DNA of 40,299 bases from a virus. The translations under genes and the position numbers were made by a program. The DNA lies in IMG/VR virus record IMGVR_UViG_3300028578_000002, one strand, 5' to 3'. The stretch's first letter is position 1, and each line of letters starts with the position of its first letter. The notes under the pieces are model-generated. The model searched no databases and had not been told where the DNA came from. It was given only the letters and a program-made list of their open reading frames with translations. Of the stretch, positions 12,537 through 32,879 are shown one piece after another.

Positions 12537-12554
12537 CGCGAGGCTACGCCGCGG
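12537..12554 (-). promoter_or_regulatory. Motif copy A4 (CCGCGGCG TAGCCT CGCG), 45 nt upstream of the major tail ATG
   Basis: Same 18-mer as at 23473-23491, 30470-30489 and 32859-32879. Its TAG is the stop codon of the upstream gene. Confidence 0.45.
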
Positions 12555-13655: not shown

Positions 13656-14251
13656 GAGCCGACGGCCTCGAAGATGCCGGGCGCGGCCATCGACACGCGG
13701 TAGAGGTCGAGCTCGCGCCGGTCGGGCGCGGCAAGGGTGGGGAGCCGGGACTCGTCGAACGCGAAGCCGGCCGAGTAGCCGCCCATGCTCTCTTGTGAGA
13801 GGCCTTCGGGGTTGACGAGGGCGCGTGCGGCGACGCGCAGGACGACGAGCTTGACGGCTTCGATCTCGTTGGCGCTGAGCCCGTAGGAGATCGTGACCTC
13901 GTACCACCGCGACCGGCGGAGCCAGACGCCACCGTCAACGCGGTGCAAGATGCCGTCGCGGTTCCAGTCGAAAGCGGTGTCGACGGCGAGGTCGGTGGCC
14001 GCGCCGCGGGGGTCCTCGACGATGGAGATGACGTCGATGATGTGGTCCGCGGGGAGCAACATGACCGGGGTGCCGGAGCCGTCGATGAGCCCGACGGCCT
14101 CGACGGCTTCGAGGCTTGGTCGTTGGAGGTGGCCGAGCACCATGCCCGAGACGCCGGCGAGGAGGAGCTCAGCGCGTCGGACCTCGTCGCCGACGGGCGC
14201 GTCGAGCTCGAGGAAGTCGGCGAGCTCGGTGGCGCTCGCGAGGAGGGTCAT
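13652..14251 (-). CDS. Head-tail adaptor (gp6-like connector)
   Basis: N-terminal ATELADFLELD...RAELLLAGVSGMV is typical of gp6-like connectors. ATGA coupling to the upstream gene. Confidence 0.6.
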   Translation of the reverse strand: MTLLASATELADFLELDAPVGDEVRRAELLLAGVSGMVLGHLQRPSLEAVEAVGLIDGSGTPVMLLPADHIIDVISIVEDPRGAATDLAVDTAFDWNRDGILHRVDGGVWLRRSRWYEVTISYGLSANEIEAVKLVVLRVAARALVNPEGLSQESMGGYSAGFAFDESRLPTLAAPDRRELDLYRVSMAAPGIFEAVGS

Positions 14252-16943: not shown

Positions 16944-16945
16944 CG

Positions 16946-18508
16946 CTAGAAGACGCCGTCGAAGATCGGAACGTAGCCGATGAACGCGCCCGTCGGGTCA
17001 TGGACGCTATGGCGGCCGATGACGTTGCCGAGGGTGGTGAGCCCGGTGACGACGGGGACTTGGTACTGGTTGAACGTGACGGACCCGCCGGCGGTGATGT
17101 TCCCCGCGACGTGGTGGTTGCCGGTGACGCGCTCGTGGCCGACGACCTCGAACGTCGACGGGTTGACCGGGTCGCGGCCCCATCGGACGTCAGTGCCGGC
17201 GGTGCCGTCGCCGGCAATCGTCGAACCGTCGGCGATCCGGTAGAAGCGCAGGTTGGCTTCGCCGATGACCTGGCATGCTTCGATCACGTCGTTGTTTTGC
17301 TCGGGCCGGATGAAGTCGACCGCAGAGCGCTCGTGCCGCGGGATGATGCTGGTGATGCCAGCTTGGTCGAGCTTCTGTGCGACCGTCCCGAAGTACCACG
17401 GCTCCTTGCCGAAGATGATGTTGCCTTGGAACGCGAGAGGGACAGCGCCGACCGAGCCGCCACCCACGTCCATGCGGGCACCGACGAAGGGGTTGGCGCT
17501 GAACGCGACGTCGCACGCGTTGCCGCCGTGGAACTTGGTGTCCTCGACGATGAGCGAGGACTGACCGGTCCCGTCGGCGTTGTCCGCGAGGACCGCCGTG
17601 CCCATCGCGTCGGGGAGGTCGCCACCGAAGATGTCGCCATTGATGGAGATGGGCACGTGCCGCAGGATGTTGAGCGCACCCGCGGAGTTCTTGACCATGT
17701 GCTGACTCGACGCGTAGGAGCCCTCGAGGATCGTGTCTTGCACGACGTTGTAGAGCGTGTACGCGAACTGGCCGAGCGGCTGCGCGAGGACCCGGCGGAA
17801 CTCGAGGATGGTGTCGTATGCGCCGGCGAGCTCGCCCTTGAGGATGACGTTGTTGGCGGCGCCGGCGTCGAAGCGGCAGACGACGTTCCCGTCGACGCAC
17901 CACGGGTCGTTGATCAGCGAGTTCTGCAACGTGGCGAGGAGCAGACAGATGCCCTCGTCGGGGTCCGCGAAGTTGGCGGTGACGGCCTCGATGTACGCGG
18001 AGACCAGGAGGCCGAACACGAGCGGGCGCGTGGCGATGCCGAGCGCGGGCCCGGGCCCACCCCAGACGGCGAAGTGCCCGTAGTACCCGGCGTACTGGCG
18101 GGGGTTGCCGTACGCGTTGCAGTCGACCCCGGCGCCCGCGTCGACGCATTCGATGATGGAGATATCGCGGCCCTGCCCGACGATGCCCTTGCCCAACATG
18201 TCGGGCCGGCCCTCGAGGTAGAAGTGGTCACCGGGGTTCGCGGGGAGCGGGAGCGCGACACCGTTGGCGCCGATCTCCTCGGCCTCCTCGCGTGCCGAGA
18301 TGAGCGCGGCGGTGTTGTCGAACGCGGAGCCGTCGGCCTTCCCGCCGTGGCGCTCGAGCGGGACGTTGATCATGTGCCGTCGGAGGAACTCCCCGCGGGC
18401 GAGCATGCCGAAGATGTCCTTGTAGATCTCGGAGTGCTCGGGGTGCGCCGGCGTGACGTCGGCGACGATCTCTGAGGGTAGGAGGTCGATGGTGTCTTCG
18501 GGTTGCAC
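16946..18508 (-). CDS. Pectate-lyase-superfamily / right-handed beta-helix protein (tailspike- or depolymerase-like)
   Basis: N-terminal HGGKADGSAFDNTAALISAREEAEEIGANGVALPLPANPGDHFYLEG signature, followed by a G/N/V/I-rich repetitive body. GTG start. Confidence 0.6.
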   Translation of the reverse strand: MQPEDTIDLLPSEIVADVTPAHPEHSEIYKDIFGMLARGEFLRRHMINVPLERHGGKADGSAFDNTAALISAREEAEEIGANGVALPLPANPGDHFYLEGRPDMLGKGIVGQGRDISIIECVDAGAGVDCNAYGNPRQYAGYYGHFAVWGGPGPALGIATRPLVFGLLVSAYIEAVTANFADPDEGICLLLATLQNSLINDPWCVDGNVVCRFDAGAANNVILKGELAGAYDTILEFRRVLAQPLGQFAYTLYNVVQDTILEGSYASSQHMVKNSAGALNILRHVPISINGDIFGGDLPDAMGTAVLADNADGTGQSSLIVEDTKFHGGNACDVAFSANPFVGARMDVGGGSVGAVPLAFQGNIIFGKEPWYFGTVAQKLDQAGITSIIPRHERSAVDFIRPEQNNDVIEACQVIGEANLRFYRIADGSTIAGDGTAGTDVRWGRDPVNPSTFEVVGHERVTGNHHVAGNITAGGSVTFNQYQVPVVTGLTTLGNVIGRHSVHDPTGAFIGYVPIFDGVF

Positions 18509-18526
18509 GCCGACGATCCTACGGGC
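18509..18526 (-). promoter_or_regulatory. Motif copy C2 (GCCCG TAGGAT CGTCGGC | GTG), ambiguous with a weak AGGA ribosome-binding site
   Basis: Read on the minus strand between the capsid terminator hairpin and GTG 18508. Confidence 0.35.
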
Positions 18527-18535
18527 GGGCGCGAA

Positions 18536-18561
18536 CCGGCCCGGGCGATGGGCCCGGGCCG
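18536..18561 (-). terminator. GC-rich hairpin after the major capsid gene (intrinsic terminator/attenuator candidate)
   Basis: Perfect 11-bp stem CCGGCCCGGGC/GCCCGGGCCGG with a 4-nt loop, 28 nt past the capsid stop. Only TT follows it on the sense strand. Confidence 0.5.
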
Positions 18562-18588
18562 GTCGTTGCTAAGCCGGGGGGCGAAGCG

Positions 18589-20060: not shown

Positions 20061-21191
20061 CTAGGAGAGCTCGGCCTCCGCGAGGTCGAGCTCGGCGAGC
20101 ACGGTGTCGTACCCACTGGCATCCTCGGACCCCGTCTCCGCTCCCGGCTCCTCCGCGTTGGCCCTGCCGGGCTCCTCCGCGTTGGCCGTGGCCTTGCCGG
20201 TGTTCGATTCGGCCGCGACCGTACCGCGGTCCTTGCCGACGATGGCGGATCGGACGCGGTTCTTGCGGACCCGGGCCTTGCGCGACACCTCGACGGTCAC
20301 CTCGATCTCCGCGGCGTCGGCGACCGTGACGGTGCCGTCGTCGCCGCGCTCGAACGACACCTCGTAGAAGATGCCCTCGCCGATCGGGTCGTTCCACCCT
20401 TCGACCAGGACGATGGCCCGGTCCTCGGTCGGGTAGGTGGCTTCCTGGTGGAGGTAGTAGAAGCCGCCGTCGCCGGAGTCGAGCTCGCGGAAGTGCTCGA
20501 ACGCGGCATCGTAGAGGGCTTCGACCTCGGCTTCGACGGAGCCCTCGAAGTCGACGTTGACGCGGGCCTTGGCGCCGGTCTCGGCGCGGCGCTTGGCGAC
20601 GGCCTCGAGGGCCTCGATGACCTGCTCGGCGTTGAGCTCGCCGTCGAGCGCGGCGGAGAGGAGCCGGGTCGCGGGGTTCGCTCCCTTGAGCGTGGGCCCG
20701 ACCTCGATGACGTCGAGCTCGAGGAGCTCGTTGGCGCCGTCGGATCCGCGGCGCTCCTCGATCACGTCGTACGCGAACGAGAACTCCTTGATCCGTCGCT
20801 TCTCGAGCCGCTTGGCCAGCCGGCGCGCGAAGGGCTCGTCGGGGTCGTCAACGTCGAGCCGGAACTTGGTGAGGAGACCGCCGTTGTCCTCGAGGCCGGT
20901 GCCGGCCAACAACGGGTCGCCGGCGCCGAGCTCCTTGGCTTCGAGGACCTCACCGACGTGGGCCTCGAGGTCGTCCCACTGGTGGGAGAAGATGACCGGG
21001 ATGGGGTCACCGGACGCGGCCCATCGCTCGAGGCTCTTGGCGAACGCGCCCGCGATGATCCGATCGCCCTGGTGATCGACGTTCCCGAACACCGAGACGA
21101 TCGCGGAGAAGACGCCGGGGCCCTCGTCGGGTAGCGCCTTGAGGCCGTGCAGGGTGGCGACGGTCTTGGCCTTGCGAATGGTCTTGCTCAT
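20061..21191 (-). CDS. Prohead (capsid maturation) protease, HK97/S78 family, with a ~190-aa C-terminal extension
   Basis: ORF trimmed to ATG 21191 with GGAGG 9 nt upstream. GVFSAIVSVFGNVDHQGDRIIAGAFAKSL...VIFSHQWDD. The tail contains ANAEEPG twice. Confidence 0.8.
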   Translation of the reverse strand: MSKTIRKAKTVATLHGLKALPDEGPGVFSAIVSVFGNVDHQGDRIIAGAFAKSLERWAASGDPIPVIFSHQWDDLEAHVGEVLEAKELGAGDPLLAGTGLEDNGGLLTKFRLDVDDPDEPFARRLAKRLEKRRIKEFSFAYDVIEERRGSDGANELLELDVIEVGPTLKGANPATRLLSAALDGELNAEQVIEALEAVAKRRAETGAKARVNVDFEGSVEAEVEALYDAAFEHFRELDSGDGGFYYLHQEATYPTEDRAIVLVEGWNDPIGEGIFYEVSFERGDDGTVTVADAAEIEVTVEVSRKARVRKNRVRSAIVGKDRGTVAAESNTGKATANAEEPGRANAEEPGAETGSEDASGYDTVLAELDLAEAELS

Positions 21192-21204
21192 GGTGGTCAT
21201 CCTC

Positions 21205-23235
21205 CTACGAGAAGTCGAGCGAGCACTGGCACCCGGCGGTCTGCGCGACACCGAGGACCGGGTCGCCGGGGTACTGGCCGCCGTTGCTGAACGGCTGGCC
21301 GAGGGGGACGGTCTCGCCGTTGAGGCCGGCGTGGCGCGAGTCCTGCGCGCCCGACGACCGCCACGTCTTGGTGCGGACACCGGCTTGCGACGCGGCCTCG
21401 CGTCGGGCCCACTGGCCGACGGTGGTGGCGCGGGTGGTGGCGATGGTCGGGATCCGGGCGGCGACGGTCACGGCGAACACGTTGCGGGCGGGGTCGAGGA
21501 ACGAGTCGCCGCCGAGGAAGTCGTCGACGCCGTCGTCGTCGAGCGCGATGCCGAGCTCGGTGAGGGCCTCGGCGATGGCCTTGCTCGCGGTGCCGCGGCG
21601 TGCCACGCCGGACCAGGCTTCGGCGAGCTCGTCGTAGGTCGCACCATTGATGCCCTCCGCCGCGATCCGGGCGTTCTCCCCGAGCCATGCTTCGGTCCGG
21701 GTGATGTCGAACTCCGCGCCGAACTCCGCGGCGAGGGGCGTGCCGAGGTCCTCGGTCATCGCGAGGTTCAACGCGAAGAGGTCGGTGCGGAGCTCGCCGT
21801 CCCACCGGGCCCGGTCGAAGGCCTCGTCGAGATCCTGGCCGGCGCCGAGCCGGGACAGCACCGAGGCGGCCTGGCGGTTGACGAACCCGGTGAGGACCTC
21901 GACGTGCTTGGCCTGCCAGCCGGTGAGGTTCGCGGGGAGCGCGGCCTTGGCGAGGGCCTTGGCGCCGTGCCCGGTGAGCGTCGCGGAGGCGGTGCCCGAT
22001 GGTGCGGAGTCGGTCGGTGAGGCCTGGCCACCGACGAGCACGTTGAGGGGGACAACGAGCTCGTTGCCGCCGTCGATCGGCGGGAGGTTGCGGAGCGCGC
22101 GGGCCTCGTTGCGCGACAGCCACGGCGCGCCCGTCGCGGTCTGGATCGCGGAGGCCTGCTCCTCGAAGCGGCCGCGGAGCTTCTCTTCGATGTTGAACTC
22201 GAGGTAGACGTCGTCGACGTCGTCGAACTCGGGGAGGACCTGGGCCTCAAGTTCGAGGGTGAGCCAGTCGAGCCACGGGCCGAGGGTGTCGGCGTAGAGG
22301 CTGACGTGCTGCTCCTTGATGTTGGCGAAGTTCGCGTGCTCAAGGATCCCGACGAACACCGGCGGGATGAAGTACGCCGCGGCGCACTCCTCGCGGGTGA
22401 GCCTGCGCGCGCCGAGGTATTCGGAATCCTTCGCGGAGAACGAGGCTTCCTTCCATTGCATGCCGTCTTCGAGGATCGGAGTGCCGCCGGCGCCGGTGCC
22501 CGATCCGGTGTAGGTGCCGCGCCAGTCCGAGAGGAACCGGTTGCGCGCGGTGTCGGACCACTTCGGCGCCTCGACGGGGCGCTCAATGATGCCCGACATC
22601 CGCGCGCCAGTGCGCCAGAACTGCTCGCGGTACTCACCGGCGGCGGCCTCCTCGGCGAGGATCTGGCGGAGCGACTCGACCGGGCTGACCCCGATGCGCG
22701 GGTCGCTCGGGTTGTGGCCGTGCATGTAGAAGACCGCGTCGTTGGGATAGGTCCGCTCGCCGAGGATGCCGGTGACCTTGAACCCTTCGGGCCACAGGAG
22801 CGAGTCACCGATCGGGGTGATGAGCGTGGGCGGGATCCGCACCGCGTTGAGCTCGCCGTTGGCGTCGTTGCGGAGCTTGAGCTCGAAGAGCGAGTCGTAG
22901 AGCGCGAGGTCCTCGATCATGTTGCGGATCCACACGTGCCGGGTGGTGGGCCGCGGGAGCGCCGGCGTCGGGTTCTTGAGGAACCGCGCTAGGTCGTGGC
23001 CCGGCTCGAGGCCGATACGCTCGTTGTCGCTGACGCGCCGGTAGGCCTTGAGCCCGAGTTGTGCGATGTTCCGGGCGAGGAACCGGATGACGATGCGCAG
23101 GTTGGGCTGCGCCTTGTAGAGCTCGGCGTAGTCCTGAACGCGGCCGTTGTAGAGGGTGATGCTCTGTACGGCGGGGCCTTGGACCCACTGGCGGTAGGTG
23201 GAGACGAGCGAGCCAGCGGACTCGACGATGGCCAC
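21205..23235 (-). CDS. Portal protein (HK97-type) fused to a Mu F / SPP1 gp7-like head morphogenesis domain
   Basis: The N-terminal ~400 aa are portal-like (…FWRTGARMSGII…EDGMQWKE…LTREECAAAYFIPPVFVG). The C-terminus ...SRHAGLNGETVPLGQPFSNGGQYPGDPVLGVAQTAGCQCSL is a MuF motif. GTG start. Confidence 0.85.
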   Translation of the reverse strand: MAIVESAGSLVSTYRQWVQGPAVQSITLYNGRVQDYAELYKAQPNLRIVIRFLARNIAQLGLKAYRRVSDNERIGLEPGHDLARFLKNPTPALPRPTTRHVWIRNMIEDLALYDSLFELKLRNDANGELNAVRIPPTLITPIGDSLLWPEGFKVTGILGERTYPNDAVFYMHGHNPSDPRIGVSPVESLRQILAEEAAAGEYREQFWRTGARMSGIIERPVEAPKWSDTARNRFLSDWRGTYTGSGTGAGGTPILEDGMQWKEASFSAKDSEYLGARRLTREECAAAYFIPPVFVGILEHANFANIKEQHVSLYADTLGPWLDWLTLELEAQVLPEFDDVDDVYLEFNIEEKLRGRFEEQASAIQTATGAPWLSRNEARALRNLPPIDGGNELVVPLNVLVGGQASPTDSAPSGTASATLTGHGAKALAKAALPANLTGWQAKHVEVLTGFVNRQAASVLSRLGAGQDLDEAFDRARWDGELRTDLFALNLAMTEDLGTPLAAEFGAEFDITRTEAWLGENARIAAEGINGATYDELAEAWSGVARRGTASKAIAEALTELGIALDDDGVDDFLGGDSFLDPARNVFAVTVAARIPTIATTRATTVGQWARREAASQAGVRTKTWRSSGAQDSRHAGLNGETVPLGQPFSNGGQYPGDPVLGVAQTAGCQCSLDFS

Positions 23236-23241
23236 GGTGCG

Positions 23242-23472
23242 CTAGCCCTCCGCGGCCGGGACGATGACCTGGGCGAAAGACACGTTGGTGCGCTCGACGA
23301 TGACGTCGCCGTCGAGCCGGACCGGGTCACGTGCGGCCTCGAGGAGGTAGGCGTCCTTGAGCACGAGCAACGGTCCCCGGGCCTCGAACAGCACGCCGCG
23401 GATGGCGACGGCGTCCTTGAGGTTGACGAGGACTCGGCGATGGAGCGCTACCCGGCGCCACGACGAGAACAT
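23242..23472 (-). CDS. Hypothetical 76-aa protein directly upstream of portal
   Basis: Good G/C third-position bias. ATG 23472 is abutted by the TAGCCT motif. Confidence 0.6.
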   Translation of the reverse strand: MFSSWRRVALHRRVLVNLKDAVAIRGVLFEARGPLLVLKDAYLLEAARDPVRLDGDVIVERTNVSFAQVIVPAAEG

Positions 23473-23491
23473 GCCGCGAGGCTACGCCGCG
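23473..23491 (-). promoter_or_regulatory. Motif copy A3 (CGCGGCG TAGCCT CGCGGC | ATG)
   Basis: Read on the minus strand at the end of a 112-nt non-coding gap. No Shine-Dalgarno. Confidence 0.5.
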
Positions 23492-23584
23492 TCCTGGGGG
23501 GTGCTAGGGATCGGGGCGCGGCACCGGCCCGAGCCGAAGCCCGGACCGGCCACCGGTGTCGCAACCCAACCGACCGCGGTGACG

Positions 23585-23797
23585 CTACCCGGTGCCCTCC
23601 GCGATCCGAAGTACCTGCACGTTGGAGAGCCCGGCGAGCCCACCGATGGCCCGCGCTGAGGGCGGGTCGGGGAGCGCACGGAGCTCTCGGATGATGGCGT
23701 CGCGCGCGGCCTTGGATCCATCGACCTGGGCCTCGGCCGCGTCGAGCCGGAGGCGCACCGAGCGAAGCCGGCTCTCGAGCTCGGCCCGGCTAGCCAT
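23585..23797 (-). CDS. Small coiled-coil + HTH DNA-binding protein
   Basis: 70 aa. ...RDAIIRELRALPDPPSARAIGGLAGLSNVQVLRIAEG. Same architecture as 2948-3202 and 33965-34234. Confidence 0.6.
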   Translation of the reverse strand: MASRAELESRLRSVRLRLDAAEAQVDGSKAARDAIIRELRALPDPPSARAIGGLAGLSNVQVLRIAEGTG

Positions 23798-23966
23798 GGT
23801 CGTCCTCCCCGAGGTCGCACGACAGGGCCGTCACGTTGCCGAACCCGTTGCGACGGACGATGCAGGTGACGCCGTCGATGACCTCGGTGTGCGGGCTGCG
23901 GTCGGCGCATCCGCTGGCCGCGAGCACGAGCGCGACCACCGCGGCCACCGCGCGACGGCTAGCCAC
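23790..23966 (-). CDS. Small lipoprotein (58 aa)
   Basis: GTG 23966. Signal peptide plus lipobox VAAVVALVLAASGC. Second Cys pair further along the sequence. Confidence 0.5.
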   Translation of the reverse strand: MASRRAVAAVVALVLAASGCADRSPHTEVIDGVTCIVRRNGFGNVTALSCDLGEDDHG

Positions 23967-24429
23967 GGTCGTCGTCCGGCATCGGTGAGAAGAGCCAGGG
24001 GGACTCTCCCGCGAGGGTGATCCCGTAGCCGTGGAACGTCGCGAACAGGGCCCAGACGACGTAGAAGCCGGGGAGGCTAGCGACGATGAACCGGGCCGCC
24101 GCGCCGCGCTGGCGGATCGCGACGTCGATGGCATGGTCGGCGACGAGCCGACGGAACACCGCGACACCGACGTCGTTGAGCACGAGCTCGTCATCGGCGA
24201 TGACACCGAGGCCGAGGTCGACGGCCTCGATGTCGTCCATCTTCCCGGCGGCGAGCAGGGCCTTGACGAGGATGACGAGCTCCTCGAGGTCATGGTCGGA
24301 GATGGTCTCGGCGTCGGGCTCGGTGTTGACGAGCTCGTCGAGGGTGACGGTCTCGACCGGGAGCTCGACGTCGACGTCGGGGTCGTCGGCGCCGGTCTCG
24401 GCGTAGAGGTGGGCGAGGGGGTCGGTCAT
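23959..24429 (-). CDS. Acidic protein with a C-terminal hydrophobic anchor (156 aa)
   Basis: ORF trimmed to ATG 24429 (ATGA coupling). The N-terminal half is D/E-rich. The C-terminus FIVASLPGFYVVWALFATFHGYGITLAG is TM-like. Confidence 0.6.
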   Translation of the reverse strand: MTDPLAHLYAETGADDPDVDVELPVETVTLDELVNTEPDAETISDHDLEELVILVKALLAAGKMDDIEAVDLGLGVIADDELVLNDVGVAVFRRLVADHAIDVAIRQRGAAARFIVASLPGFYVVWALFATFHGYGITLAGESPWLFSPMPDDDRG

Positions 24430-24719
24430 CGGTTCGTGTCCTCCTTGAGGAACGCTTGGGCTTGTCGGTGTGAGCACGAGCAGTCGATCGGGCACTCCCC
24501 GTTGGGGCCGTAGTCCATGGTGTGCCGACGGAGGAGTTCGGTCGCTCGAGCGGCGCGGACCTCGGCGTCGGCCCATGCGCGGCCGAGGTCCTTCACGGTG
24601 GGCCAGCCGAGTTGGTGGAGCTCAAGGCGCATCGTGGTCCCCTCGAGCGCGTCGGCCACCACGTGAGCGAGGTCCTCGCGGAGATGGCGTAGCGCTCGGA
24701 GCTTCTCGCGGATGGTCAT
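24426..24719 (-). CDS. Hypothetical 97-aa protein
   Basis: AAGGAGG lies 8 nt upstream of ATG 24719. C-terminal Cys/His cluster GECPIDCSCSH. Confidence 0.6.
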   Translation of the reverse strand: MTIREKLRALRHLREDLAHVVADALEGTTMRLELHQLGWPTVKDLGRAWADAEVRAARATELLRRHTMDYGPNGECPIDCSCSHRQAQAFLKEDTNR

Positions 24720-24859
24720 GGGATGAGCCTCCTTGCGGCTCGGCCGGTGAGCCGGCCGTAGATCCGTCGCAGGATGCGGCGGAGGATGCGTCCGCGCCGG
24801 ATGGCACGGAGGTCGTTGGCGACCCGGAGGCCGCGGTAGAGGTGGTCGCGCGTGCTCAT
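24716..24859 (-). CDS. Arg-rich 47-aa peptide (15 Arg; RRGRILRRILRRIYGRLTGR)
   Basis: Not in the ORF track because it is under 60 aa. ATGA overlaps at both ends (24856-24859 and 24716-24719). Translated by hand with no internal stop. Confidence 0.5.
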   Translation of the reverse strand: MSTRDHLYRGLRVANDLRAIRRGRILRRILRRIYGRLTGRAARRLIP

Positions 24860-25086
24860 CGGAGCACCACGGCGACGCCGTCGATGCGGAGGTCGACGTC
24901 GAGCTCAGGGAACCGCTCGCGGATGGAGCGGAGAGCGGCGGAGGCAGCGCCGCTGATCACGTCGGCGGCGAACTCGGCGAACTCCTCGGCCTCGTCGGGG
25001 CGCTCGTCGAAGTCGAGGGCCTCGTAGCGGGTGAAGAGCTCGAGCTTGGTGTCGAGGATCTGGTCCTTGGTGGTGGTGTCGGTCAT
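24856..25086 (-). CDS. Acidic 76-aa protein, first gene after terL
   Basis: ORF trimmed to ATG 25086, 7 nt after a TAGCAT hexamer. An alternative ATG at 25095 would overlap that hexamer. Confidence 0.55.
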   Translation of the reverse strand: MTDTTTKDQILDTKLELFTRYEALDFDERPDEAEEFAEFAADVISGAASAALRSIRERFPELDVDLRIDGVAVVLR

Positions 25087-25103
25087 GGCCGCCATGCTAC
25101 ATG
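25087..25103 (-). promoter_or_regulatory. Motif copy C1 (CATG TAGCAT GGCGGCC | ATG)
   Basis: Read on the minus strand. It is embedded in the second hairpin after terL. Confidence 0.4.
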
Positions 25104-25135
25104 GTGTAGCACGCTGGCGCAAGTGGCTCTTGCGC
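25096..25135 (-). terminator. Two adjacent hairpins immediately after the terL stop
   Basis: GCGCAAG-5 nt-CTTGCGC (25117-25135, includes one base of the stop codon) and GCTACA-3 nt-TGTAGC (25096-25110). No U-tract. Confidence 0.3.
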
Positions 25136-26982
25136 TAGGCGACGGTGAGGCCGGCGTCTTCGTAGGCCGAGGTGGTGTAGGTCTCGCGGGTGTAGCCGTC
25201 GACGGCCATGACCACGGCGACGGCGGGGTCGACGTGGCCGGTCGACCGGGACCGGTTGGGCTTCACGTTGAGCGCGGCGTCCTGCTCGACGGCGAGGTTC
25301 TCAAACGCGTACCGCAGGAGCGGGTTGCCGCCGGTCCAGAGCCGGCCCTCGGCGATGATCCGCTCGGTTTCCTTCATGGCGGGGGAGATCCCGGCGAAGC
25401 CCTGGCCGACCTCGGCGACGGTGAGGCCGCCGTCGCGCAGGTGTTGGAGGATCTGCTTGGAGCCCCACCGGTCGAACGACAGGCGTGCGAGCTCGAGCTC
25501 ATCGGCGAGGTGCATGGCCTCGTCTTCGATGGCGTCGTAGTCGATGGTCTCGCCGGCGCAGAGGCGGAGCCATCCGTCGCGTGCCCACCGGGTGAAGAGC
25601 TCGCGCACCGCGGGCGGCCTCGACTTGAGCCGCTCCGCGGGGGTCCACGCGCGGAGCACGACCTCGAGGACCTCGATCTCGTAGTCAGGGTCCGCAGGAT
25701 CGGGTACCCACAGGGGAACGGCGACGGCGAGCGCGGTGAGGTCCATGGACGACGACAGGTCGAGCCCGGCGTAGCCGACCTGGCCGCGCACCGCGGGCCC
25801 GAGCGTCCCGATGTGGGTGCCGCCGAGCTTGGCACCGCGGTCGTAGAGGTCCAGGTCGAGCCAGCGTGACACCGTCGAGGTGCGCACGTTGAGGTGCAGA
25901 CGCAAGAACGCGAGGCGCTTGCGTTCCGAGCGCCGTGCCTTTTTGACGTTGTCCTCGAGGTAGTCGACCGACACCGACACACCGAGCCCGGGGTTGGCGA
26001 CCTGCCAGACGTCGGGGTCGTCCCACCGGTCATGGAGGTGCTCGGGAATGGAGTAGATCACGGCCCAGGTGCGCAGGTCGGTGACACGTCCGTCGCCGAT
26101 CGCTTCGGCGAGGTCATGGAGCTCGGCGTAGATGGTGCCGTCGGTGTCCGCGCCGGCGGTGGTGAGGTGCGCAACGAGGGGTTGGGCGCGGCCGACGGTG
26201 CCGGACTCGATCGTCTCGATGAGCCGGGCGTCGCGATGCACGTGGGTCTCGTCGATCACCGCGCCCGACACGTTGCCGCCCATCTTCTCCTCGGCCTTCG
26301 CGGGGTCCCCGGAGATCACCTCGGCGCGCGAGAGCGTCCGCTCGTAGACGAGGGCCCGGTCGGCTTGGATCCCGAGCCGCTCGTACAGGGTCCGCGACGC
26401 GCGGACCATTGCTTCCATGGGGCGGAACACGTTGCGGGCCTGGTCGGTGGTGGTCGCCGCGAGGTACACCTCGGCGCCGGGCTCGAACAGCCGGCCCGCC
26501 GCGAGGTTGGAGTCCGCGAGCAACAGGTAGAGCGCGAGCACCGCGGCGAGGGTGGTCTTGCCGTTCTTGCGTGGAACCTCGAGGAACAGCGTGCGGTAGA
26601 ACCGGTTGCCGTCGGCCTGGCGCCACCCGAACACCGGGGCGAGCACGTAGATGACCTGCCACAGGTCCGGCCGCAGACGGCGCCCGGCGAGCTCGCCCTT
26701 GGAGTGGCGGCCGTTCTTCCAACAGAACTCGAGGACACGCCGGACCTCGTCGACGTTGAACGTGATGCCGTGCCGGCGGCGCATCTCCCGGTTCGGCGGT
26801 GCCGCCACCGACAGAGGCGGGATGCACCGGTCGAGCTCGGCGTCGAGGTCACGCCAGTACCCGAGCTCGCCGAGCACCTCCGCCAGACCCGGCATCGCGG
26901 CGAGATCCGCACGGACGCGGGCCCGTCGGGCGTCGACGTCGAGCGGGTCTCTACGTGCCGAAGTCGAAGCCGTCGTCGTCAT
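25135..26982 (-). CDS. terL: Terminase large subunit (Terminase_1 type)
   Basis: ORF trimmed to ATG 26982. Walker A region FLEVPRKNGKTTLAAVLALYLL, followed by AEVYLAATTTDQA and a C-terminal nuclease region. Confidence 0.9.
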   Translation of the reverse strand: MTTTASTSARRDPLDVDARRARVRADLAAMPGLAEVLGELGYWRDLDAELDRCIPPLSVAAPPNREMRRRHGITFNVDEVRRVLEFCWKNGRHSKGELAGRRLRPDLWQVIYVLAPVFGWRQADGNRFYRTLFLEVPRKNGKTTLAAVLALYLLLADSNLAAGRLFEPGAEVYLAATTTDQARNVFRPMEAMVRASRTLYERLGIQADRALVYERTLSRAEVISGDPAKAEEKMGGNVSGAVIDETHVHRDARLIETIESGTVGRAQPLVAHLTTAGADTDGTIYAELHDLAEAIGDGRVTDLRTWAVIYSIPEHLHDRWDDPDVWQVANPGLGVSVSVDYLEDNVKKARRSERKRLAFLRLHLNVRTSTVSRWLDLDLYDRGAKLGGTHIGTLGPAVRGQVGYAGLDLSSSMDLTALAVAVPLWVPDPADPDYEIEVLEVVLRAWTPAERLKSRPPAVRELFTRWARDGWLRLCAGETIDYDAIEDEAMHLADELELARLSFDRWGSKQILQHLRDGGLTVAEVGQGFAGISPAMKETERIIAEGRLWTGGNPLLRYAFENLAVEQDAALNVKPNRSRSTGHVDPAVAVVMAVDGYTRETYTTSAYEDAGLTVA

Positions 26983-27508
26983 CGCGCTCGGCTCCCTGTC
27001 CCGCACCCGCGGCCGCGCCCGGGCGCAGCGACACACGCGCCGACGGGGTGAGCCCGAAGTCAGAGCACCACGCACGGTAGGTGTTGACCGCCATGTTGAA
27101 CGTCGAGAACGCCGGATGCTTCTTGAGCATCCCGCCGTGCGCGTTGTCCTTCACGACGACCTCGTAGCCACGACGGCGCCCGTCGTTCTCACCGTCGGAA
27201 CGCTTGTAGCGCATCGCCTCGAGCGACGAGATGGCCATTGCGTAGCACTCGCACGCCAACCGGAACGACCCCACGTCGAGCCGCGTGAGCAGACCGAGCC
27301 GCTCGAGCTCCGGCGCATGCAGCCGCCAACAGTCCCGGGCATGGGGCGACAGGTCCTTCGGCGGGTCGACATCACGGACCGGTTCGGCCTTGACCTCAGC
27401 GGCCTCGCGCTCCTCGAGCTCGGCCTTCGAGAGCTTCGCCCGGTTCCCATGCAACCGGATCACCTCCGCAGAGTGGCGCGGCGGCCCCGGCTTGCCCGGC
27501 CCGGCCAT
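26951..27508 (-). CDS. terS: Terminase small subunit, P27 family
   Basis: MAGPGKPGPP...LSPHARDCWRLHAPELERLGLLTRLDVGSFRLACECYA...AWCSDFGLTPSARVSL matches the P27-family pattern. Confidence 0.85.
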   Translation of the reverse strand: MAGPGKPGPPRHSAEVIRLHGNRAKLSKAELEEREAAEVKAEPVRDVDPPKDLSPHARDCWRLHAPELERLGLLTRLDVGSFRLACECYAMAISSLEAMRYKRSDGENDGRRRGYEVVVKDNAHGGMLKKHPAFSTFNMAVNTYRAWCSDFGLTPSARVSLRPGAAAGAGQGAERDDDDGFDFGT

Positions 27509-27795
27509 CAGGCGCTCCGCTCGAGGTCGGTGAGCTCGTCGAGCACGAGCCGTGCGGCCGCACCACGGTCGACCTTGGCCGCCGGCAGCGGCCGGGGCGA
27601 CTCGACCACCATGCCGTGCCCGGCATGCTCGTGCTCAAGATGCGCCGACGCCGCGCCCACTGCCCGGACCCGGCCCGGCACAAGCACCGGCATCGCACCA
27701 TGCGCCGAACACGCCACAGCCCACCCCGTCACCCGGCCACGCGGAGCCTCCCCGAACAGCACGACAACCGGGTCGACGAGCGGCGGGAGCCTCAC
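27508..27795 (-). CDS. Hypothetical 95-aa protein
   Basis: GTGA coupling upstream and a TGATG overlap with terS. It uses G- and T-ending codons, unlike the bulk genes. Confidence 0.5.
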   Translation of the reverse strand: MRLPPLVDPVVVLFGEAPRGRVTGWAVACSAHGAMPVLVPGRVRAVGAASAHLEHEHAGHGMVVESPRPLPAAKVDRGAAARLVLDELTDLERSA

Positions 27796-28118
27796 GACCC
27801 CGGCACCTCCCCCGGCCCGGCCTCAAGCGGCGGGCCCGTCACCGACGCCGGCATCACCACCTCACCCGACTCAATCCACCCGGCCAGCACCGACGTGTCC
27901 CGACGCAACACCGCCAGCAAAGCCGGCGTCGCCTCACCCTCCTCGGTCCCCATCAACCCCGCCGCCTCCGTCTCGAAGCCCGCCGGATCCTCGACCGCAC
28001 GAGCCTCCCACGTCGCATAGGCCTCCGCGAGCGCCACCACCTCCGGCGCCACCTCCGCGACCTGCGGCCCGAACTCATACCCCGGCGGAACCACAGGGCC
28101 AGCACGCCAGTCCGTCAC
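27792..28118 (-). CDS. Hypothetical acidic 108-aa protein
   Basis: GTGA coupling to the HNH stop. Same atypical G/T-ending codon habit as its neighbour. Confidence 0.5.
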   Translation of the reverse strand: MTDWRAGPVVPPGYEFGPQVAEVAPEVVALAEAYATWEARAVEDPAGFETEAAGLMGTEEGEATPALLAVLRRDTSVLAGWIESGEVVMPASVTGPPLEAGPGEVPGS

Positions 28119-28660
28119 GGATCGACCCTCCTCCGGCGCCGAGACGGCGGCGCCAAGCCGGTGTCCTCAGAGCCTACGCGGCCCCGCACAGGCGACCTCG
28201 GACCACCGTCGGAGCGCGCGTGGTTTCCCCGGCGGTCCTTCGGCGAGGGGATGAGCCGATCGCGACGCCCTTCCCTCTCGCTCGGGCTCGGGCCCGGGTC
28301 GATGTCGTCTCCTCGTGTTCGTCGTCGGGCGAGGTCGGTGGCGGTCTTGCGGGAGTGGCAGGGGTGGCAGAGGGGTTGGTGGTTGTCGGGGTTCCATGGG
28401 TCGCCGCCGTCTTCGAGGGGTTGGATGTGGTCGACGTCGGTGGCTGGTTGTCGGCATCGTGGGGTGGCGCACCATGGGTGCTCGAGGAGGTAGCGGCGGG
28501 AGTAGGTGCGCCACCGTGGGGTGCGGTAGATGGCGAGGCTGGTTGCTCGCTGCGCGTTGCGTTGAGCGTCTGAGCCTGGTCGGTGGGTGTCGTGGTCGGG
28601 GCAGGGGCGGAGGTGGGGGCAGGGCCAGGCTGGGCATGGGGTGGGGTTGCGGGTGGGCAC
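28115..28660 (-). CDS. HNH endonuclease (packaging-associated type)
   Basis: IYRTPRWRTYSRRYLLEHPWCATPRCRQPATDVDHIQPLEDGGDPWNPDNHQPLCHPCHSRKT. The only in-frame start upstream of this motif is GTG 28660, which gives a Pro/Cys/His-rich N-terminus encoded by the C-rich tract. Confidence 0.8.
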   Translation of the reverse strand: MPTRNPTPCPAWPCPHLRPCPDHDTHRPGSDAQRNAQRATSLAIYRTPRWRTYSRRYLLEHPWCATPRCRQPATDVDHIQPLEDGGDPWNPDNHQPLCHPCHSRKTATDLARRRTRGDDIDPGPSPSEREGRRDRLIPSPKDRRGNHARSDGGPRSPVRGRVGSEDTGLAPPSRRRRRVDP

Positions 28661-28720
28661 GGTCGTAGTTTGCTGCGGGTGGTGGGGTGGTCGGTTCGAT
28701 GGTGGGGGTGGGGTGGTGGT
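28582..28720 (+). repeat. G-run-dense tract with at least two canonical G-quadruplex motifs on the plus strand
   Basis: GGGGCAGGGGCGGAGGTGGGGGCAGGG (28598-28624) and GGGCATGGGGTGGGGTTGCGGGTGGG (28632-28657), plus further GGGG/GGGGG runs to 28713. Confidence 0.8.
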
Positions 28721-28743
28721 GCCCGTCGTTTTTTCACGGGCAC
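28719..28743. other. Hairpin with an A/T-rich loop in the divergent non-coding region
   Basis: GTGCCCG-TCGTTTTTTCA-CGGGCAC (7-bp stem). The T6 run is the most AT-rich spot in the window. Confidence 0.6.
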
Positions 28744-28859
28744 GTTGCGACCTGAGAACCCGGTAGCCCCGCCAGGCTTGACAGAGCCGGTACGCTGTGG
28801 CGGTCTCGGCGCGGAGGCAGAGCCGCCCAGTGTGGCGTCCACCGGGGTCGGGCAACGTG

Positions 28860-29306
28860 ATGAGGAGCGCGGAGCGCATGAGCAGGAACGTCGAGCGGCG
28901 GTTCGCGTACCGGTCGCCAGGGCTCTACGACCGAGTCGTCGAGCACGTGGTGCAGGCTCGAGCCGAGGGGATCGGCTGGGCTGAGCTCCTGGCCCGGGCC
29001 GACCCGGACAACGAGTACGCCGAGCGCAGCGTCGAGGGCGCGATCCGTGAGCTCTGGATGCTCGGCCTGCTCTCGGTCGGTGGCCGGGCCGGGACGTACA
29101 ACCGGCCGAGCACGCGCCGGGTGTGGGTGTCGCCGCTCGGGTTCGCTGCGCTCGCTGGTGAGGTGGCTGACCTGCCCTGGTCCTCTGCGCTGTGGCGCGT
29201 CGACGGTGACGATGACGAACCGGTCGGCGAGGACTGGGTACCTGAGGTGCCGGGAGCGGCCGAGCTCGCCGAGGTGGTCGACGTGGTCCTCGACCGGGAG
29301 CCGTGA
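28860..29306 (+). CDS. Winged-helix-like DNA-binding protein (start uncertain: 28797 GTG, 28860 or 28878 ATG)
   Basis: YDRVVEHVVQARAEGIGWAELLARAD...SVEGAIRELWMLGLLSV...RRVWVSPLG resembles a wHTH. First gene of the plus-strand cassette. Confidence 0.55.
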   Translation: MRSAERMSRNVERRFAYRSPGLYDRVVEHVVQARAEGIGWAELLARADPDNEYAERSVEGAIRELWMLGLLSVGGRAGTYNRPSTRRVWVSPLGFAALAGEVADLPWSSALWRVDGDDDEPVGEDWVPEVPGAAELAEVVDVVLDREP

Positions 29307-30469: not shown

Positions 30470-30489
30470 CCGCGGCGTAGCCTCGCGGC
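30470..30489 (+). promoter_or_regulatory. Motif copy A1 (CCGCGGCG TAGCCT CGCGGC | GTG)
   Basis: Read on the plus strand directly abutting GTG 30490. No Shine-Dalgarno. Confidence 0.5.
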
Positions 30490-31245
30490 GTGGGTGAGGT
30501 GCTGATCTCGGAGCGCAGGTCGAAGCCGTCGGCTGGGACGCGCTCAGCGTCGGGGGTGTCGGTGGCGGGCCCGTTCGAGGTCCTTGAGGGTGATGAGCTC
30601 GAGGAGGTCCTCGCGTCGGCTGACGGGGCCCTCGAGGGCCTGGCTGAGGCGATGGCGACGTTGGAGGCCTCGGCGGGCGTGGTGGCGGTGGAGACGCTCA
30701 CGGAGGACCTGGCGGCGCTGGGGGCGAGGACGCGGCTGGTCGGCGGCGGGGTGGGCACCTCTGCGGTGGTCAACACGGTCGTGGAGACCGATCTGGTGTC
30801 GACGTCGACACCGTTGGGCCTGGTCGCTGGTGACGTGCTGGTGTTGCGGGTCCGCGGGACGGTCCTGAACGCGTCGGCGGGCCCGGTGACGTTCTTGCCG
30901 CGGGTGCGTCTGGCGGGCGTCGCGGTGGTCGCTGGCGCGGCGGTGGCTCAGCCGGTGAACGTGCTGCCGTCGGAGTGGGACCTCGAGGTGCGGATCCGGG
31001 TGAACACGATGCTCGAGCAGGTGATCTCGGCGCGCGGGTGCCAGGGTGCGCCGGCGCTGCCGGGGGCGCTGGGGGCGACGGTGCCGGGCGGCCCGTTCGA
31101 TGGGGTGGCCCGGTCATCGGGGACGGCGAACCTGGCGACGGCCAAGACGCTGCGGGTGACGGTGCAGATGGGCACGGCGTCGCCGGCGGCGTCGTGCGCG
31201 CTCACGGCGTGGGAGCTCGTGCTGCTGCGCTCCCCGACGTCCTAG
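30490..31245 (+). CDS. Fibre/receptor-binding-like protein (251 aa): helical N-terminus + beta-rich C-terminus
   Basis: The plus frame gives a protein-like sequence, while the antisense ORF is S/T/P/R junk. Strong GTG/CTG/GCG/ACG codon preference, unlike the bulk genome. Confidence 0.6.
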   Translation: MGEVLISERRSKPSAGTRSASGVSVAGPFEVLEGDELEEVLASADGALEGLAEAMATLEASAGVVAVETLTEDLAALGARTRLVGGGVGTSAVVNTVVETDLVSTSTPLGLVAGDVLVLRVRGTVLNASAGPVTFLPRVRLAGVAVVAGAAVAQPVNVLPSEWDLEVRIRVNTMLEQVISARGCQGAPALPGALGATVPGGPFDGVARSSGTANLATAKTLRVTVQMGTASPAASCALTAWELVLLRSPTS

Positions 31246-32858: not shown

Positions 32859-32879
32859 GGCCGCGAGGCTACGCCGCGG
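32859..32879 (-). promoter_or_regulatory. Motif copy A2 (CCGCGGCG TAGCCT CGCGGCC | ATG)
   Basis: It fills the whole 21-nt gap between the stop at 32880 and ATG 32858. Confidence 0.5.

What the first reader, a model, noticed from the sequence alone, without database searches (positions are those of the whole stretch)
23242..25135. Seven-gene accessory island between terL and portal with its own boundary signals
terL and portal are usually adjacent. Here 1.9 kb intervene. The island opens with two hairpins right after the terL stop (25096-25135) plus a TAGCAT start motif. It closes with a 112-nt non-coding gap plus a TAGCCT motif in front of the gene preceding portal.

Contents: an acidic 76-aa protein, an Arg-rich 47-aa peptide, a 97-aa Cys/His protein, an acidic protein with a C-terminal membrane anchor, a lipoprotein (lipobox LAASGC), a small HTH protein and a 76-aa protein.

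Membrane and lipoprotein genes together with a regulator in a late-operon moron position is the classic layout of superinfection-exclusion or anti-defence cargo. None of these proteins is recognisable.
Basis: partly seen in the sequence, partly recalled or inferred. Interest (0 to 1): 0.65.

Follow-up and report, generated by a model that had tools for sequence, protein, structure and literature searches.

The report
Variable gene cassette between terminase and portal
A high-GC actinobacterial phage carries, between its DNA-packaging gene and its head genes, a six-gene cassette of unknown small proteins that appears to have its own promoter and terminator; related phages carry different cargo at the same spot, so it looks like an ordinary accessory-gene hot spot with undescribed proteins.

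Summary
Seven minus-strand ORFs lie between terL and portal, with the stated properties, two hairpins after the terL stop, a 112-nt gap, and TAGCAT/TAGCCT motifs.

The seventh gene (g7, 23242-23472) is not cargo. It is an Sm-like protein (phrog_6750) that sits between terL and portal in 137 actinophage records.

The cassette is therefore six genes, g1-g6 (23585-25086). It has the layout of a separate transcription unit, inferred from sequence only:
- a sigma-70-like promoter, TTGCGC-17-TAGCAT-7-ATG, directly after terL;
- six translationally coupled genes;
- a 12-bp G+C hairpin whose sequence differs but whose position is kept in five relatives;
- then a conserved promoter-like 17-mer (four exact copies in the genome) 6 nt before the g7 ATG.

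The closest sister phages (L008, L014) have only g7 at this site. Six relatives share parts of the cassette (the acidic g4 family, the HTH g6 family). More distant relatives carry WhiB, esterases or DUF6884 there. The lipoprotein gene g5 is a 169-bp insertion flanked by 22-nt direct repeats.

g1, g2, g3 and g5 are singletons among 15 billion proteins. No integrase was found. Superinfection exclusion is possible but unsupported. Verdict: a new member of a known kind, moderate interest.

The parts
25135..26895 (-). terL (586 aa as gene-called; the open frame extends to 27075)
   Evidence: Pfam TerL_ATPase and TerL_nuclease, phrog_9 at E 8e-122. Gene call.
25117..25135 (-). Hairpin 1 (GCGCAAG-AGCCA-CTTGCGC). 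It starts at the last base of the terL stop codon, and its 3' arm contains the -35-like TTGCGC.
   Evidence: strand folding.
25093..25113 (-). Hairpin 2 (GTGCTACAC-CAT-GTAGCAT). It overlaps the -10-like TAGCAT.
   Evidence: strand folding.
25084..25122 (-). Putative cassette promoter: TTGCGC (25117-25122), 17-nt spacer, TAGCAT (25094-25099), 7 nt, then ATG (25084-25086). This would give a leaderless g1 mRNA.
   Evidence: It is one of only three TTGNNN-16/18-TA[GC]NNT sites in 40 kb, and all three are intergenic. The same -35/17/-10 layout is aligned after terL in L108, L109, L105 and L035. The stretch is 17/19 identical to the -10 and downstream part of the 32862 copy of the 17-mer. No transcript data exist.
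24856..25086 (-). g1, acidic protein of 76 aa (79 aa if the ATG at 25095 is used); singleton
   Evidence: GC3 0.89. pI 4.2. No family hit at E up to 0.001 (only weak matches at E about 0.1 or above). A cluster of one among 15 billion proteins.
24716..24859 (-). g2, 47-aa Arg-rich peptide (net +13). Its start overlaps the g1 stop as ATGA.
   Evidence: Its similarity to 47-aa ORFs in L109 and L094 is by eye only and not significant.
24426..24719 (-). g3, 97 aa, with a C-terminal Cys/His cluster (GECPIDCSCSH); singleton. It has an AAGGAGG Shine-Dalgarno and an ATGA overlap with g2.
23959..24429 (-). g4, 156 aa. It has an invariant N-terminal peptide MTDPLAHLYAETG, an acidic linker, a small folded domain (residues about 45-100), and a hydrophobic segment at 112-132 that is unique to this phage.
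   Evidence: The family has 9 clusters in 5.8 billion proteins. All contexts examined lie between terL and portal. Alignment. The peptide is kept through synonymous codon changes. AF2 core pLDDT is about 90 with no fold match.
23956..23977 (-). Left copy of the 22-nt direct repeat GGA(S)GACGACC(R)TGGCTAGCCG, at the g4|g5 junction
   Evidence: Two matches in the window against 0 expected.
23790..23966 (-). g5, 58-aa predicted lipoprotein (signal peptide plus LAASGC); a 169-bp insertion relative to sister phage L108
   Evidence: Lipobox pattern. Flanking repeats. L108 has a single junction copy. Singleton.
23787..23808 (-). Right copy of the 22-nt direct repeat, at the g5|g6 junction
23585..23797 (-). 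g6, 70 aa: a long N-terminal helix plus a C-terminal helix-turn-helix. It is the last gene of the cassette in the window, L105, L108, L109 and L094.
   Evidence: Homologues in relatives. Only about 5 small homologues among 1.84 billion representatives. AF2 pLDDT 95.8. Fold resembles sigma region 4 and small actinophage HTH proteins, with TM about 0.8 but weak E-values.
23523..23550 (-). 12-bp G+C hairpin with a UUCG loop and three G-U pairs, so it folds well only in the sense RNA. Putative terminator of the cassette; no U tract.
   Evidence: A 12-14-bp hairpin with a different stem sequence sits at the same relative position in L105, L108, L109, L035 and L094 (z down to -4.0).
23473..23512 (-). 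Putative promoter of the head operon: GATCCC box (23507-23512), 22 nt, then the 17-mer CGCGGCGTAGCCTCGCG (23475-23491, -10-like TAGCCT at 23479-23484), then 6 nt to the g7 ATG
   Evidence: Four exact copies of the 17-mer in the window, co-oriented with downstream genes. Three of the four lie 6-7 nt before a start codon. CGCGGCGTAG(C/T)CT plus 6-8 nt plus ATG is kept in L011, L092, L094 and L108, with near variants in L105, L109 and L008; the GGTCCC box at 22-23 nt is kept in L105, L108, L109, L035 and L008.
23242..23472 (-). g7, a 76-aa Sm-like protein. It is a conserved core gene preceding portal, not part of the variable cassette.
   Evidence: phrog_6750 at E 4.7e-20. 137 phage records, most listed hits annotated 'RNA binding protein', and all four records inspected have it between terL and portal. 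The family profile matches solved Sm-like proteins at E 4e-8.
21205..23235 (-). Portal protein (676 aa), with a C-terminal head-morphogenesis-like extension
   Evidence: Pfam Phage_portal at E 5e-66, phrog_2662 at 2e-151, phrog_2468 over residues 512-675.

Best explanation
g1-g6 (23585-25086) form a lineage-specific, fast-evolving accessory cassette. It occupies a gene-flux hot spot between terL and the conserved Sm-like gene that opens the head operon.

**Proposed mechanism.**
1. Host RNA polymerase with the housekeeping sigma starts at TTGCGC-17-TAGCAT, directly after the terL stop. This gives a leaderless mRNA beginning at the ATG of g1. (Inferred.)
2. The six genes are translated as a coupled chain, through 4- and 8-nt start/stop overlaps. 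(The overlaps are shown; the coupling is inferred.)
3. Transcription ends, or the RNA is stabilised, at the 12-bp G+C hairpin in the 112-nt gap. (Inferred.)
4. The head genes restart from a different, -35-less promoter class, the 17-mer. (Inferred.)

The cassette would thus be expressed independently of, and probably earlier than or in parallel with, the flanking morphogenesis genes.

**Content.**
- A semi-conserved core: the acidic g4-family protein with an invariant N-terminal peptide; usually a small membrane or secreted protein; and a small DNA-binding protein, g6, which is replaced by WhiB in one sister phage.
- Interchangeable singleton genes around that core.

In this phage the cassette has recently gained envelope targeting, through a membrane segment on g4 and an inserted lipoprotein gene g5.

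**Most likely role.** A non-structural host-interaction or regulatory function is about 55% likely. Cell-envelope-based exclusion is one candidate within that, at about 20%. Virion assembly is less likely.
For: **Position and variability.**
- The terL-to-portal distance is 220-350 nt in most of about 90 relatives, which carry only the Sm-like gene. It is 1.9-3 kb in the window, L011/L035, L092 and L094 (and in L013, L019, L020). L105, L108 and L109 carry comparable 1.3-2.1 kb cassettes between terL and the Sm-like gene (gene tables).
- The sister pair L008/L014 lacks the cassette.
- Cargo at the same site elsewhere includes WhiB, a GDSL lipase, a SASA esterase and DUF6884.

**Shared families.**
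- The g4 family is found only in terL-to-portal contexts.
- The g6 family is the last gene before the gap in five phages.

**Promoter.**
- The site after terL is one of only three full sigma-70-like sites in the genome, and all three are intergenic.
- It is positionally conserved in four relatives.
- g1 and g7 lack Shine-Dalgarno sequences, whereas g3, g4, g6 and portal have them.

**Hairpin.** The structure is kept while the stem sequence changes across six phages. G-U pairs make it specific to the sense strand.

**17-mer.** Four exact copies, co-oriented with transcription, 6-7 nt before start codons.

**Insertion of g5.** It is flanked by 22-nt direct repeats, and L108 has a single junction copy.

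**Not lysis.** The endolysin and adjacent membrane proteins lie at 4358-5865.
Against: - There are no transcript data, so the promoter and terminator are sequence inferences. The standard consensus scan found neither.
- The hairpin lacks a U tract, and its z-score in this window alone is not significant.
- Vertical retention of the g4 and g6 families at one place in the packaging/head block across a clade would also fit an assembly or packaging accessory role.
- No protein has any link to a known exclusion, defence or anti-defence family.
- No integrase was found, so prophage-type moron expression has no basis.
- The host is unknown.
Confidence: 0.55

Rival explanations
1. The cassette is superinfection-exclusion or anti-defence cargo. 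The membrane-anchored g4 and the lipoprotein g5 would sit in the cytoplasmic membrane and block DNA entry of incoming phages, in the manner of lipoprotein-based exclusion. The acidic g1 and g4 would mimic or sequester a host factor.
For: - Lipobox in g5 and a hydrophobic segment in g4.
- Strongly acidic g1 and g4.
- A host-type promoter independent of the late promoters.
- Most sister cassettes also hold a small membrane or secreted protein between the g4 and g6 slots.
- g5 is a recent gain.
Against: - No similarity to any exclusion or defence-related family, and no fold match for g4.
- The membrane segment and the lipoprotein are absent from the other g4-family cassettes, so envelope targeting is not the conserved function.
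- No sign of a temperate lifestyle.
Confidence: 0.2
2. The conserved part of the cassette (g4 and g6, perhaps g2) serves packaging or head assembly. Examples would be an accessory factor of terminase or portal, or a regulator that times the head operon. It would sit here because it is co-inherited with terL and portal.
For: - The g4 and g6 families are found only at this position, in a clade whose portals are 67-82% identical.
- The N-terminal peptide of g4 is under protein-level selection.
- g6 is DNA-binding-like and lies directly upstream of the head-operon promoter.
- In one sister phage the g6 slot holds WhiB, another transcription factor.
Against: - The sister phages L008 and L014, and most relatives, assemble heads with the same terL, Sm-like and portal genes and no cassette.
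- L035 and L092 keep the 17-mer promoter but have no g6 in the cassette.
- The cassette promoter is of a different class from the head and tail promoters.
Confidence: 0.15
3. The cassette is an early host-takeover block. Small proteins made from a host-type promoter at the start of infection would inhibit host processes. Its location between the structural genes would be incidental.
For: - It has a full -35/-10 promoter, like the one in front of the HTH_23 gene at 2948-3202 and unlike the 17-mer promoters.
- The proteins are small, charged singletons.
Against: - Timing is unknown.
- The block is co-directional with and embedded in the morphogenesis genes.
- The hairpins overlapping the -35 and -10 elements could equally mean repression or read-through control.
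Confidence: 0.1

Closest known systems
Morons of lambdoid phages (extra genes with their own promoter and terminator inserted between conserved late genes; concept from HK97/HK022 comparisons, cited from my own knowledge)
   Same: The block is inserted between two conserved morphogenesis genes and is absent from the nearest relatives. It is bracketed by a promoter-like element and a stem-loop. Its promoter class differs from that of the neighbouring operon.
   Different: It has six coupled genes rather than one or two. Part of the content is inherited vertically across a clade. The phage shows no integrase or other sign of lysogeny. The stem-loop lacks a U tract. Nothing has been measured about expression.
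Phage lipoproteins that exclude superinfecting phages (T5 Llp, phi80/N15 Cor, Streptococcus phage TP-J34 Ltp; from my own knowledge)
   Same: g5 is a very small predicted lipoprotein encoded by a phage, next to another membrane protein.
   Different: There is no sequence similarity. The mature part is only 39 residues. The host is an actinobacterium with no outer-membrane receptor to mask. No phenotype is known.
SEA-PHAGES 'RNA binding protein' (Sm-like) gene between terminase and portal in Arthrobacter, Gordonia, Nocardia and Mycobacterium phages (for g7)
   Same: It belongs to the same family (phrog_6750), has the same position immediately upstream of portal, and has the same Sm-like core.
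   Different: The window's copy lacks the N-terminal membrane helix that about half of the family carries. In this clade it has its own leaderless-type promoter. The function is untested anywhere, as far as I could find.
Repeated short regulatory motifs of actinophage genomes (cluster K start-associated sequences; L5 stoperators; from my own knowledge), compared with the 17-mer
   Same: It is an asymmetric motif repeated exactly, lying in short intergenic regions and always co-oriented with transcription.
   Different: There are only four copies. It contains a TANNNT -10-like hexamer at the distance from the start codon expected for leaderless transcripts, so a promoter fits better than a repressor stop site or a translation signal. 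No binding protein is known.
Sigma-70 region 4 and small actinophage HTH DNA-binding proteins (for g6)
   Same: The predicted fold is a long helix followed by a helix-turn-helix. It superposes on sigma region 4 at 2.5 A over 41 residues, and on small phage HTH proteins at TM about 0.8.
   Different: There is no significant sequence or Foldseek E-value and no Pfam hit. At 70 aa it is not a sigma factor.

Membership tests
Moron (autonomous accessory transcription unit in a late operon) | Extra DNA between two genes that are adjacent in close relatives | tested here: met
   L008 and L014 have terL, 45-60 nt, the Sm-like gene, then portal. The window has 1.5 kb more.
Moron (autonomous accessory transcription unit in a late operon) | Own promoter | tested here: inconclusive
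   TTGCGC-17-TAGCAT-7-ATG is conserved in position in four relatives and is one of three such sites in the genome. There is no transcript evidence, and the consensus scan was negative.
Moron (autonomous accessory transcription unit in a late operon) | Own terminator | tested here: inconclusive
   A structurally conserved 12-14-bp hairpin is present in six phages, but it has no U tract and termination has not been measured.
Moron (autonomous accessory transcription unit in a late operon) | Carried by a temperate phage and expressed from the prophage | tested here: not met
   No integrase or recombinase domain was found in any ORF over 300 aa or in the plus-strand genes. Expression cannot be tested here.
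Superinfection-exclusion lipoproteins (Llp / Cor / Ltp) | Signal peptide with a lipobox cysteine | tested here: met
   g5 has VVALVLAASGC, which fits the PROSITE-type lipobox pattern. No dedicated predictor was available.
Superinfection-exclusion lipoproteins (Llp / Cor / Ltp) | Sequence or profile similarity to a known exclusion protein | tested here: not met
   No Pfam, PHROG, NCBIfam or PADLOC hit at E up to 0.001 (two weak PHROG matches to unknown-function families at E 0.06-0.09). No tblastn hit in 50,697 phage records.
Superinfection-exclusion lipoproteins (Llp / Cor / Ltp) | Blocks infection when expressed | not testable with these tools
   This needs host, phage and plating assays.
Sm-like / LSm fold proteins (g7) | Profile similarity to Sm-fold proteins | tested here: met
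   A profile of 16 family members matches PDB 4xq3 at E 4.2e-8 and 5mkl at E 3.2e-6. phrog_6750 matches at E 4.7e-20.
Sm-like / LSm fold proteins (g7) | RNA binding and ring assembly | not testable with these tools
   The SEA-PHAGES label 'RNA binding protein' rests on homology only.
Helix-turn-helix DNA-binding proteins (g6) | HTH fold | tested here: met
   The AF2 model has pLDDT 95.8 with helices at 4-40, 48-55 and 59-67. Fold hits include sigma region 4 and phage HTH proteins with TM 0.76-0.83 and weak E-values.
Helix-turn-helix DNA-binding proteins (g6) | Match to a curated HTH family | tested here: not met
   The only Pfam hit is DUF7092 at E 0.073. The PDB profile search best HTH hit has E 0.23.
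Known anti-phage defence systems (PADLOC) | Any component model matched | tested here: not met
   No hits for g1-g7 at E up to 1. The weak NCBIfam ZorA hit for g4 (15 bits against a cut-off of 100) is noise.

The most novel reading that the evidence does not exclude
The semi-conserved trio makes up an undescribed phage module expressed from a host-type promoter inside the packaging/head block. The trio is an acidic protein with the invariant N-terminal peptide MTDPLAHLYAETG (g4), a small membrane partner, and a sigma-region-4-like HTH protein (g6, swapped for WhiB in a sister phage). In this reading the DNA-binding member redirects host RNA polymerase to the phage's -35-less GGTCCC-22-TAGCCT promoters, or gates them, and so times head-gene expression. 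The acidic protein would sequester a host factor.
Probability: 0.1. Interest if true: 0.65.

Novelty: new member of a known kind. Interest (0 to 1): 0.38.

Why it matters
- It shows that the terL-to-head-operon junction in this actinophage lineage is a defined hot spot for gene flux. The hot spot has its own promoter and terminator, and one gene gain (a lipoprotein flanked by 22-nt repeats) is caught in the act.
- It supplies two new small protein families (g4 and g6) and four singleton genes as candidates for host-interaction functions.
- It yields a testable map of transcription punctuation for an uncultured phage: sigma-70-like against 17-mer promoters, leaderless starts, and U-less hairpins.
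- The practical value is modest. It gives targets for expression and deletion screens, not a new principle.

Tried and rejected
- **Megablast** of 21000-27200 against 50,697 phage records found no match.
- **tblastn of concatenated g1-g6** against the phage records found no match even at E up to 1.
- **The search for homologous proteins with the concatenated g1-g6** filled up with 8,000 low-complexity candidates and did not even recover the window's own proteins. That search was wasted.
- **Portal search in 185,579 reference genomes** found no relative, so no prophage copy or host clue.
- **g6 word-based search** found only itself. The exhaustive HMMER search found about five small homologues plus repetitive long proteins that I regard as spurious.
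- **g4 AF2 model** gave no Foldseek match in the PDB; best E 1.6.
- **Profile of g6 against PDB sequences** gave only coiled-coil noise and one weak XRE-type HTH hit.
- **Lysis role for g4/g5** was rejected. The endolysin and its membrane-protein neighbours lie at 4358-5865.
- **g2 homology to 47-aa ORFs in L109 and L094** looked convincing by eye but BLAST does not support it.
- **The exact 17-mer in two unrelated IMG/VR contigs (L009, L010)** is not in a promoter-like context and is probably coincidence.
- **Rfam** has no credible family in 22800-25600. There are no tRNAs.
- **The standard promoter/terminator scan** found nothing relevant on the minus strand. Its E. coli-type criteria do not fit this GC content.
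- **My own perfect-stem hairpin scan** missed the gap hairpin because three of its pairs are G-U.
Full report
**What the window is.**
- The window is a 71% G+C phage genome of about 40.3 kb, and almost all genes are on the minus strand.
- Identical contigs of 40.2-40.3 kb occur in a Logan assembly (SRR8270007) and an ENA assembly (ERZ27256766).
- A RecT-like gene at the right end and an exonuclease at the left end suggest a circularly permuted complete genome.
- Megablast finds no close relative among 50,697 phage records.
- The portal finds no relative in 185,579 reference genomes.

**Gene order around the finding.**
- The order is HNH, terS (26951-27508), terL (25135-26895), seven small ORFs, portal (21205-23235), an S78 protease and an HK97-type capsid.

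**Checking the observation.**
- The seven ORFs are real by composition: GC3 is 0.83-0.94 in the named frames against 0.4-0.8 in the other frames.
- An independent gene caller finds the same seven.
- They are chained by 4-nt overlaps (g1/g2, g2/g3, g3/g4) and 8-nt overlaps (g4/g5, g5/g6).
  - g1 is acidic.
  - g2 has net charge +13.
  - g3 has 3 Cys and 5 His.
  - g4 has net charge -23 and one hydrophobic segment.
  - g5 matches a lipobox pattern.
- The two hairpins after the terL stop (25093-25135) fold at -24.5 kcal/mol, z = -2.3.

**The seventh gene is core, not cargo.**
- g7 matches phrog_6750 at E 4.7e-20.
- It has homologues in 137 phage records from Arthrobacter, Mycobacterium, Gordonia and Nocardia phages, mostly annotated 'RNA binding protein'.
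- In each of the four records I inspected it lies directly between the terminase and portal genes.
- A profile of 16 family members matches solved archaeal Sm-like proteins at E 4e-8.
- About half of the family carry an N-terminal hydrophobic helix; the window's copy does not.
- The normal state in this lineage is therefore terL, an Sm-like gene, then portal.

**The junction in relatives.**
- I fetched about 90 related loci using the portal.
- In most of them terL and portal are 220-350 nt apart, which leaves room for the Sm-like gene only.
- A few are directly adjacent, and a minority are 0.4-3 kb apart.
- In a portal tree, the window groups with L108, L035 (= L011), L105, L109 and L092. All of these have a 1.3-2 kb cassette at this spot.
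- The sister pair L008/L014 has none. L094, one step further out, has a 3-kb one.

**What the relatives' cassettes share.**
- The g4 family, with the N-terminal peptide MTDPLAHLYAETG, has nine clusters among 5.8 billion proteins. Every context examined lies between terL and portal.
- The g4 N-terminal peptide is kept through synonymous codon changes, so selection acts on the protein.
- The g6 family is the last gene before the gap in the window, L105, L108, L109 and L094.
- The exhaustive search finds only about five small g6 homologues among 1.84 billion representatives.
- Most cassettes also hold a small membrane or secreted protein.
- g1, g2, g3 and g5 are singletons among 15 billion proteins.
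- More distant phages carry quite different cargo at the same spot:
  - WhiB in L092, in the slot where g6 sits elsewhere.
  - A DUF6884 protein in L094.
  - A GDSL lipase in L019.
  - A SASA esterase with an fn3 domain in L020.
- This is a gene-flux hot spot with a semi-conserved core.

**A gene gain caught in the act.**
- The lipoprotein gene g5 is flanked exactly by a 22-nt direct repeat, 20 of 22 bases identical, at 23956-23977 and 23787-23808. None is expected by chance.
- Sister phage L108 has one copy of this sequence at its g4|g6 junction.
- So g5 is a 169-bp insertion.
- The hydrophobic C-terminal segment of g4 is likewise absent from all other family members.
- Envelope targeting is therefore a recent feature of this phage, not the conserved function of the cassette.

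**Signals after terL.**
- After the terL stop the sequence is TTGCGC, 17 nt, TAGCAT, 7 nt, then ATG (the 76-aa form of g1).
- Only three sites of the form TTGNNN-16/18-TA[GC]NNT exist in the whole window on both strands, and all three are intergenic.
- The same layout aligns after terL in four relatives:
  - L108: TTGCCA-17-TACAAT-6-ATG.
  - L109: TTGTCA-17-TAGCAT.
  - L105: TTTGCA-17-TAGCGT.
  - L035: TTGAAA-17-GAGACT-6-ATG.
- The two hairpins overlap the -35 and -10 elements. They could be a terL terminator, an operator, or both. I cannot tell which.

**Signals in the gap.**
- A 12-bp G+C hairpin with a UUCG loop and three G-U pairs lies at 23523-23550.
- Five relatives have a 12-14-bp hairpin at the same relative place with different stem sequences, with z down to -4.0.
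- That argues for a conserved RNA structure, most simply a U-less terminator.
- The hairpin is followed by a G(G/A)TCCC box, then 22-23 nt, then CGCGGCGTAG(C/T)CT, then 6-8 nt and the ATG of the Sm-like gene.

**The 17-mer elsewhere in the genome.**
- The 17-mer CGCGGCGTAGCCTCGCG occurs four times exactly in the window.
- Each copy lies in or at the edge of an intergenic region and points the same way as the downstream genes.
- Three copies are 6-7 nt before a start codon that has no Shine-Dalgarno sequence.
- The spacing fits leaderless mRNAs as known in Actinobacteria (my own knowledge).
- A similar arrangement follows the capsid gene: hairpin, TAGGAT, 7 nt, GTG.
- The 'boundary signals' are thus the ordinary punctuation of this genome.
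- They do mark g1-g6 as a separate unit whose promoter class (full -35 and -10) differs from that of the head and tail operons.

**What the proteins are.**
- g1-g6 have no match at E up to 0.001 in Pfam, PHROGs, NCBIfam or PADLOC; only weak hits at E 0.008 or above, all far below curated cut-offs.
- They have no tblastn hit in the phage records.
- The g4 model has a confident small domain at residues 45-100 (two helices, a beta-hairpin, a helix) but no fold match.
- The g6 model (pLDDT 95.8) is a long helix plus a helix-turn-helix.
  - It superposes on sigma region 4 at 2.5 A over 41 residues.
  - It superposes on small actinophage HTH proteins with TM about 0.8.
  - All of these matches have weak E-values.
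- The lysis genes are elsewhere, at 4358-5865.
- No integrase was found.

**Verdict.**
There is a separately punctuated accessory cassette.
  - It has six genes, not seven.
  - It is partly inherited within a clade.
  - Its exclusion or anti-defence function is unsupported though not excluded.
  - The temperate-phage moron picture lacks support.
- My best reading is a host-promoter-driven accessory cassette at a hot spot, with a non-structural role.
- This is a new member of a known kind, of moderate interest.

Noticed in passing
window 12537-12553(-), 23475-23491(-), 30471-30487(+), 32862-32878(-): The 17-mer CGCGGCGTAGCCTCGCG occurs four times exactly and is co-oriented with downstream genes. 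Three copies lie 6-7 nt before a start codon. A GGTCCC-like box sits 22-23 nt upstream of the TAGCCT. This is probably a phage-specific promoter class for leaderless mRNAs, lacking a normal -35 element.
   Followed up: partly
window 18509-18563: A perfect 12-bp G+C hairpin (18535-18563) follows the capsid gene. After it come TAGGAT, 7 nt, and the GTG of the 520-aa gene. This is the same terminator-plus-leaderless-promoter punctuation seen at the cassette.
   Followed up: partly
window 14248-18508: Directly after the capsid gene lie a 520-aa unknown protein, a Methyltransf_23 protein (399 aa) and a protein with a weak Glyphos_transf hit (499 aa). This may be a virion glycosylation or modification cassette.
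   Followed up: no
window 27000-28900: GC and AT skew are reversed at 27-28 kb. An open frame at 28115-28879(-) carries an HNH motif (Pfam E 5.6e-7) but was not gene-called on the public contigs, and coding potential is poor across 27.5-31 kb. This could be a cos/regulatory region or a mis-annotated HNH gene.
   Followed up: no
window 21205-23235: The portal is 676 aa. Residues 512-675 match a head-morphogenesis family (phrog_2468), so the protein is a portal fused to an SPP1 gp7/Mu F-like domain. The fusion is shared with Arthrobacter phage relatives.
   Followed up: no
L001, L002, L004, L024, L029, L035, L037 (g7 homologues): About half of the Sm-like proteins encoded between terL and portal carry an N-terminal hydrophobic helix. 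That is odd for a protein annotated as RNA-binding.
   Followed up: partly
L108 3219-3443: The g4 homologue of sister phage L108 is gene-called with a 75-residue N-terminal extension containing a DPPY motif. It looks like a remnant of a DNA methyltransferase and hence a recombination scar in the same hot spot.
   Followed up: no
window 3230-3275 and 2948-3202: A second full sigma-70-like site (TTGACA-18-TACGTT) precedes an 84-aa HTH_23 / sigma-region-4-like protein. This protein is a candidate early regulator.
   Followed up: no
window 30490-31245(+) and 28878-29306(+): The only plus-strand genes lie here. One starts with a GTG 6 nt after a 17-mer copy. Neither has a family hit, and their role (immunity or other) is unknown.
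   Followed up: no
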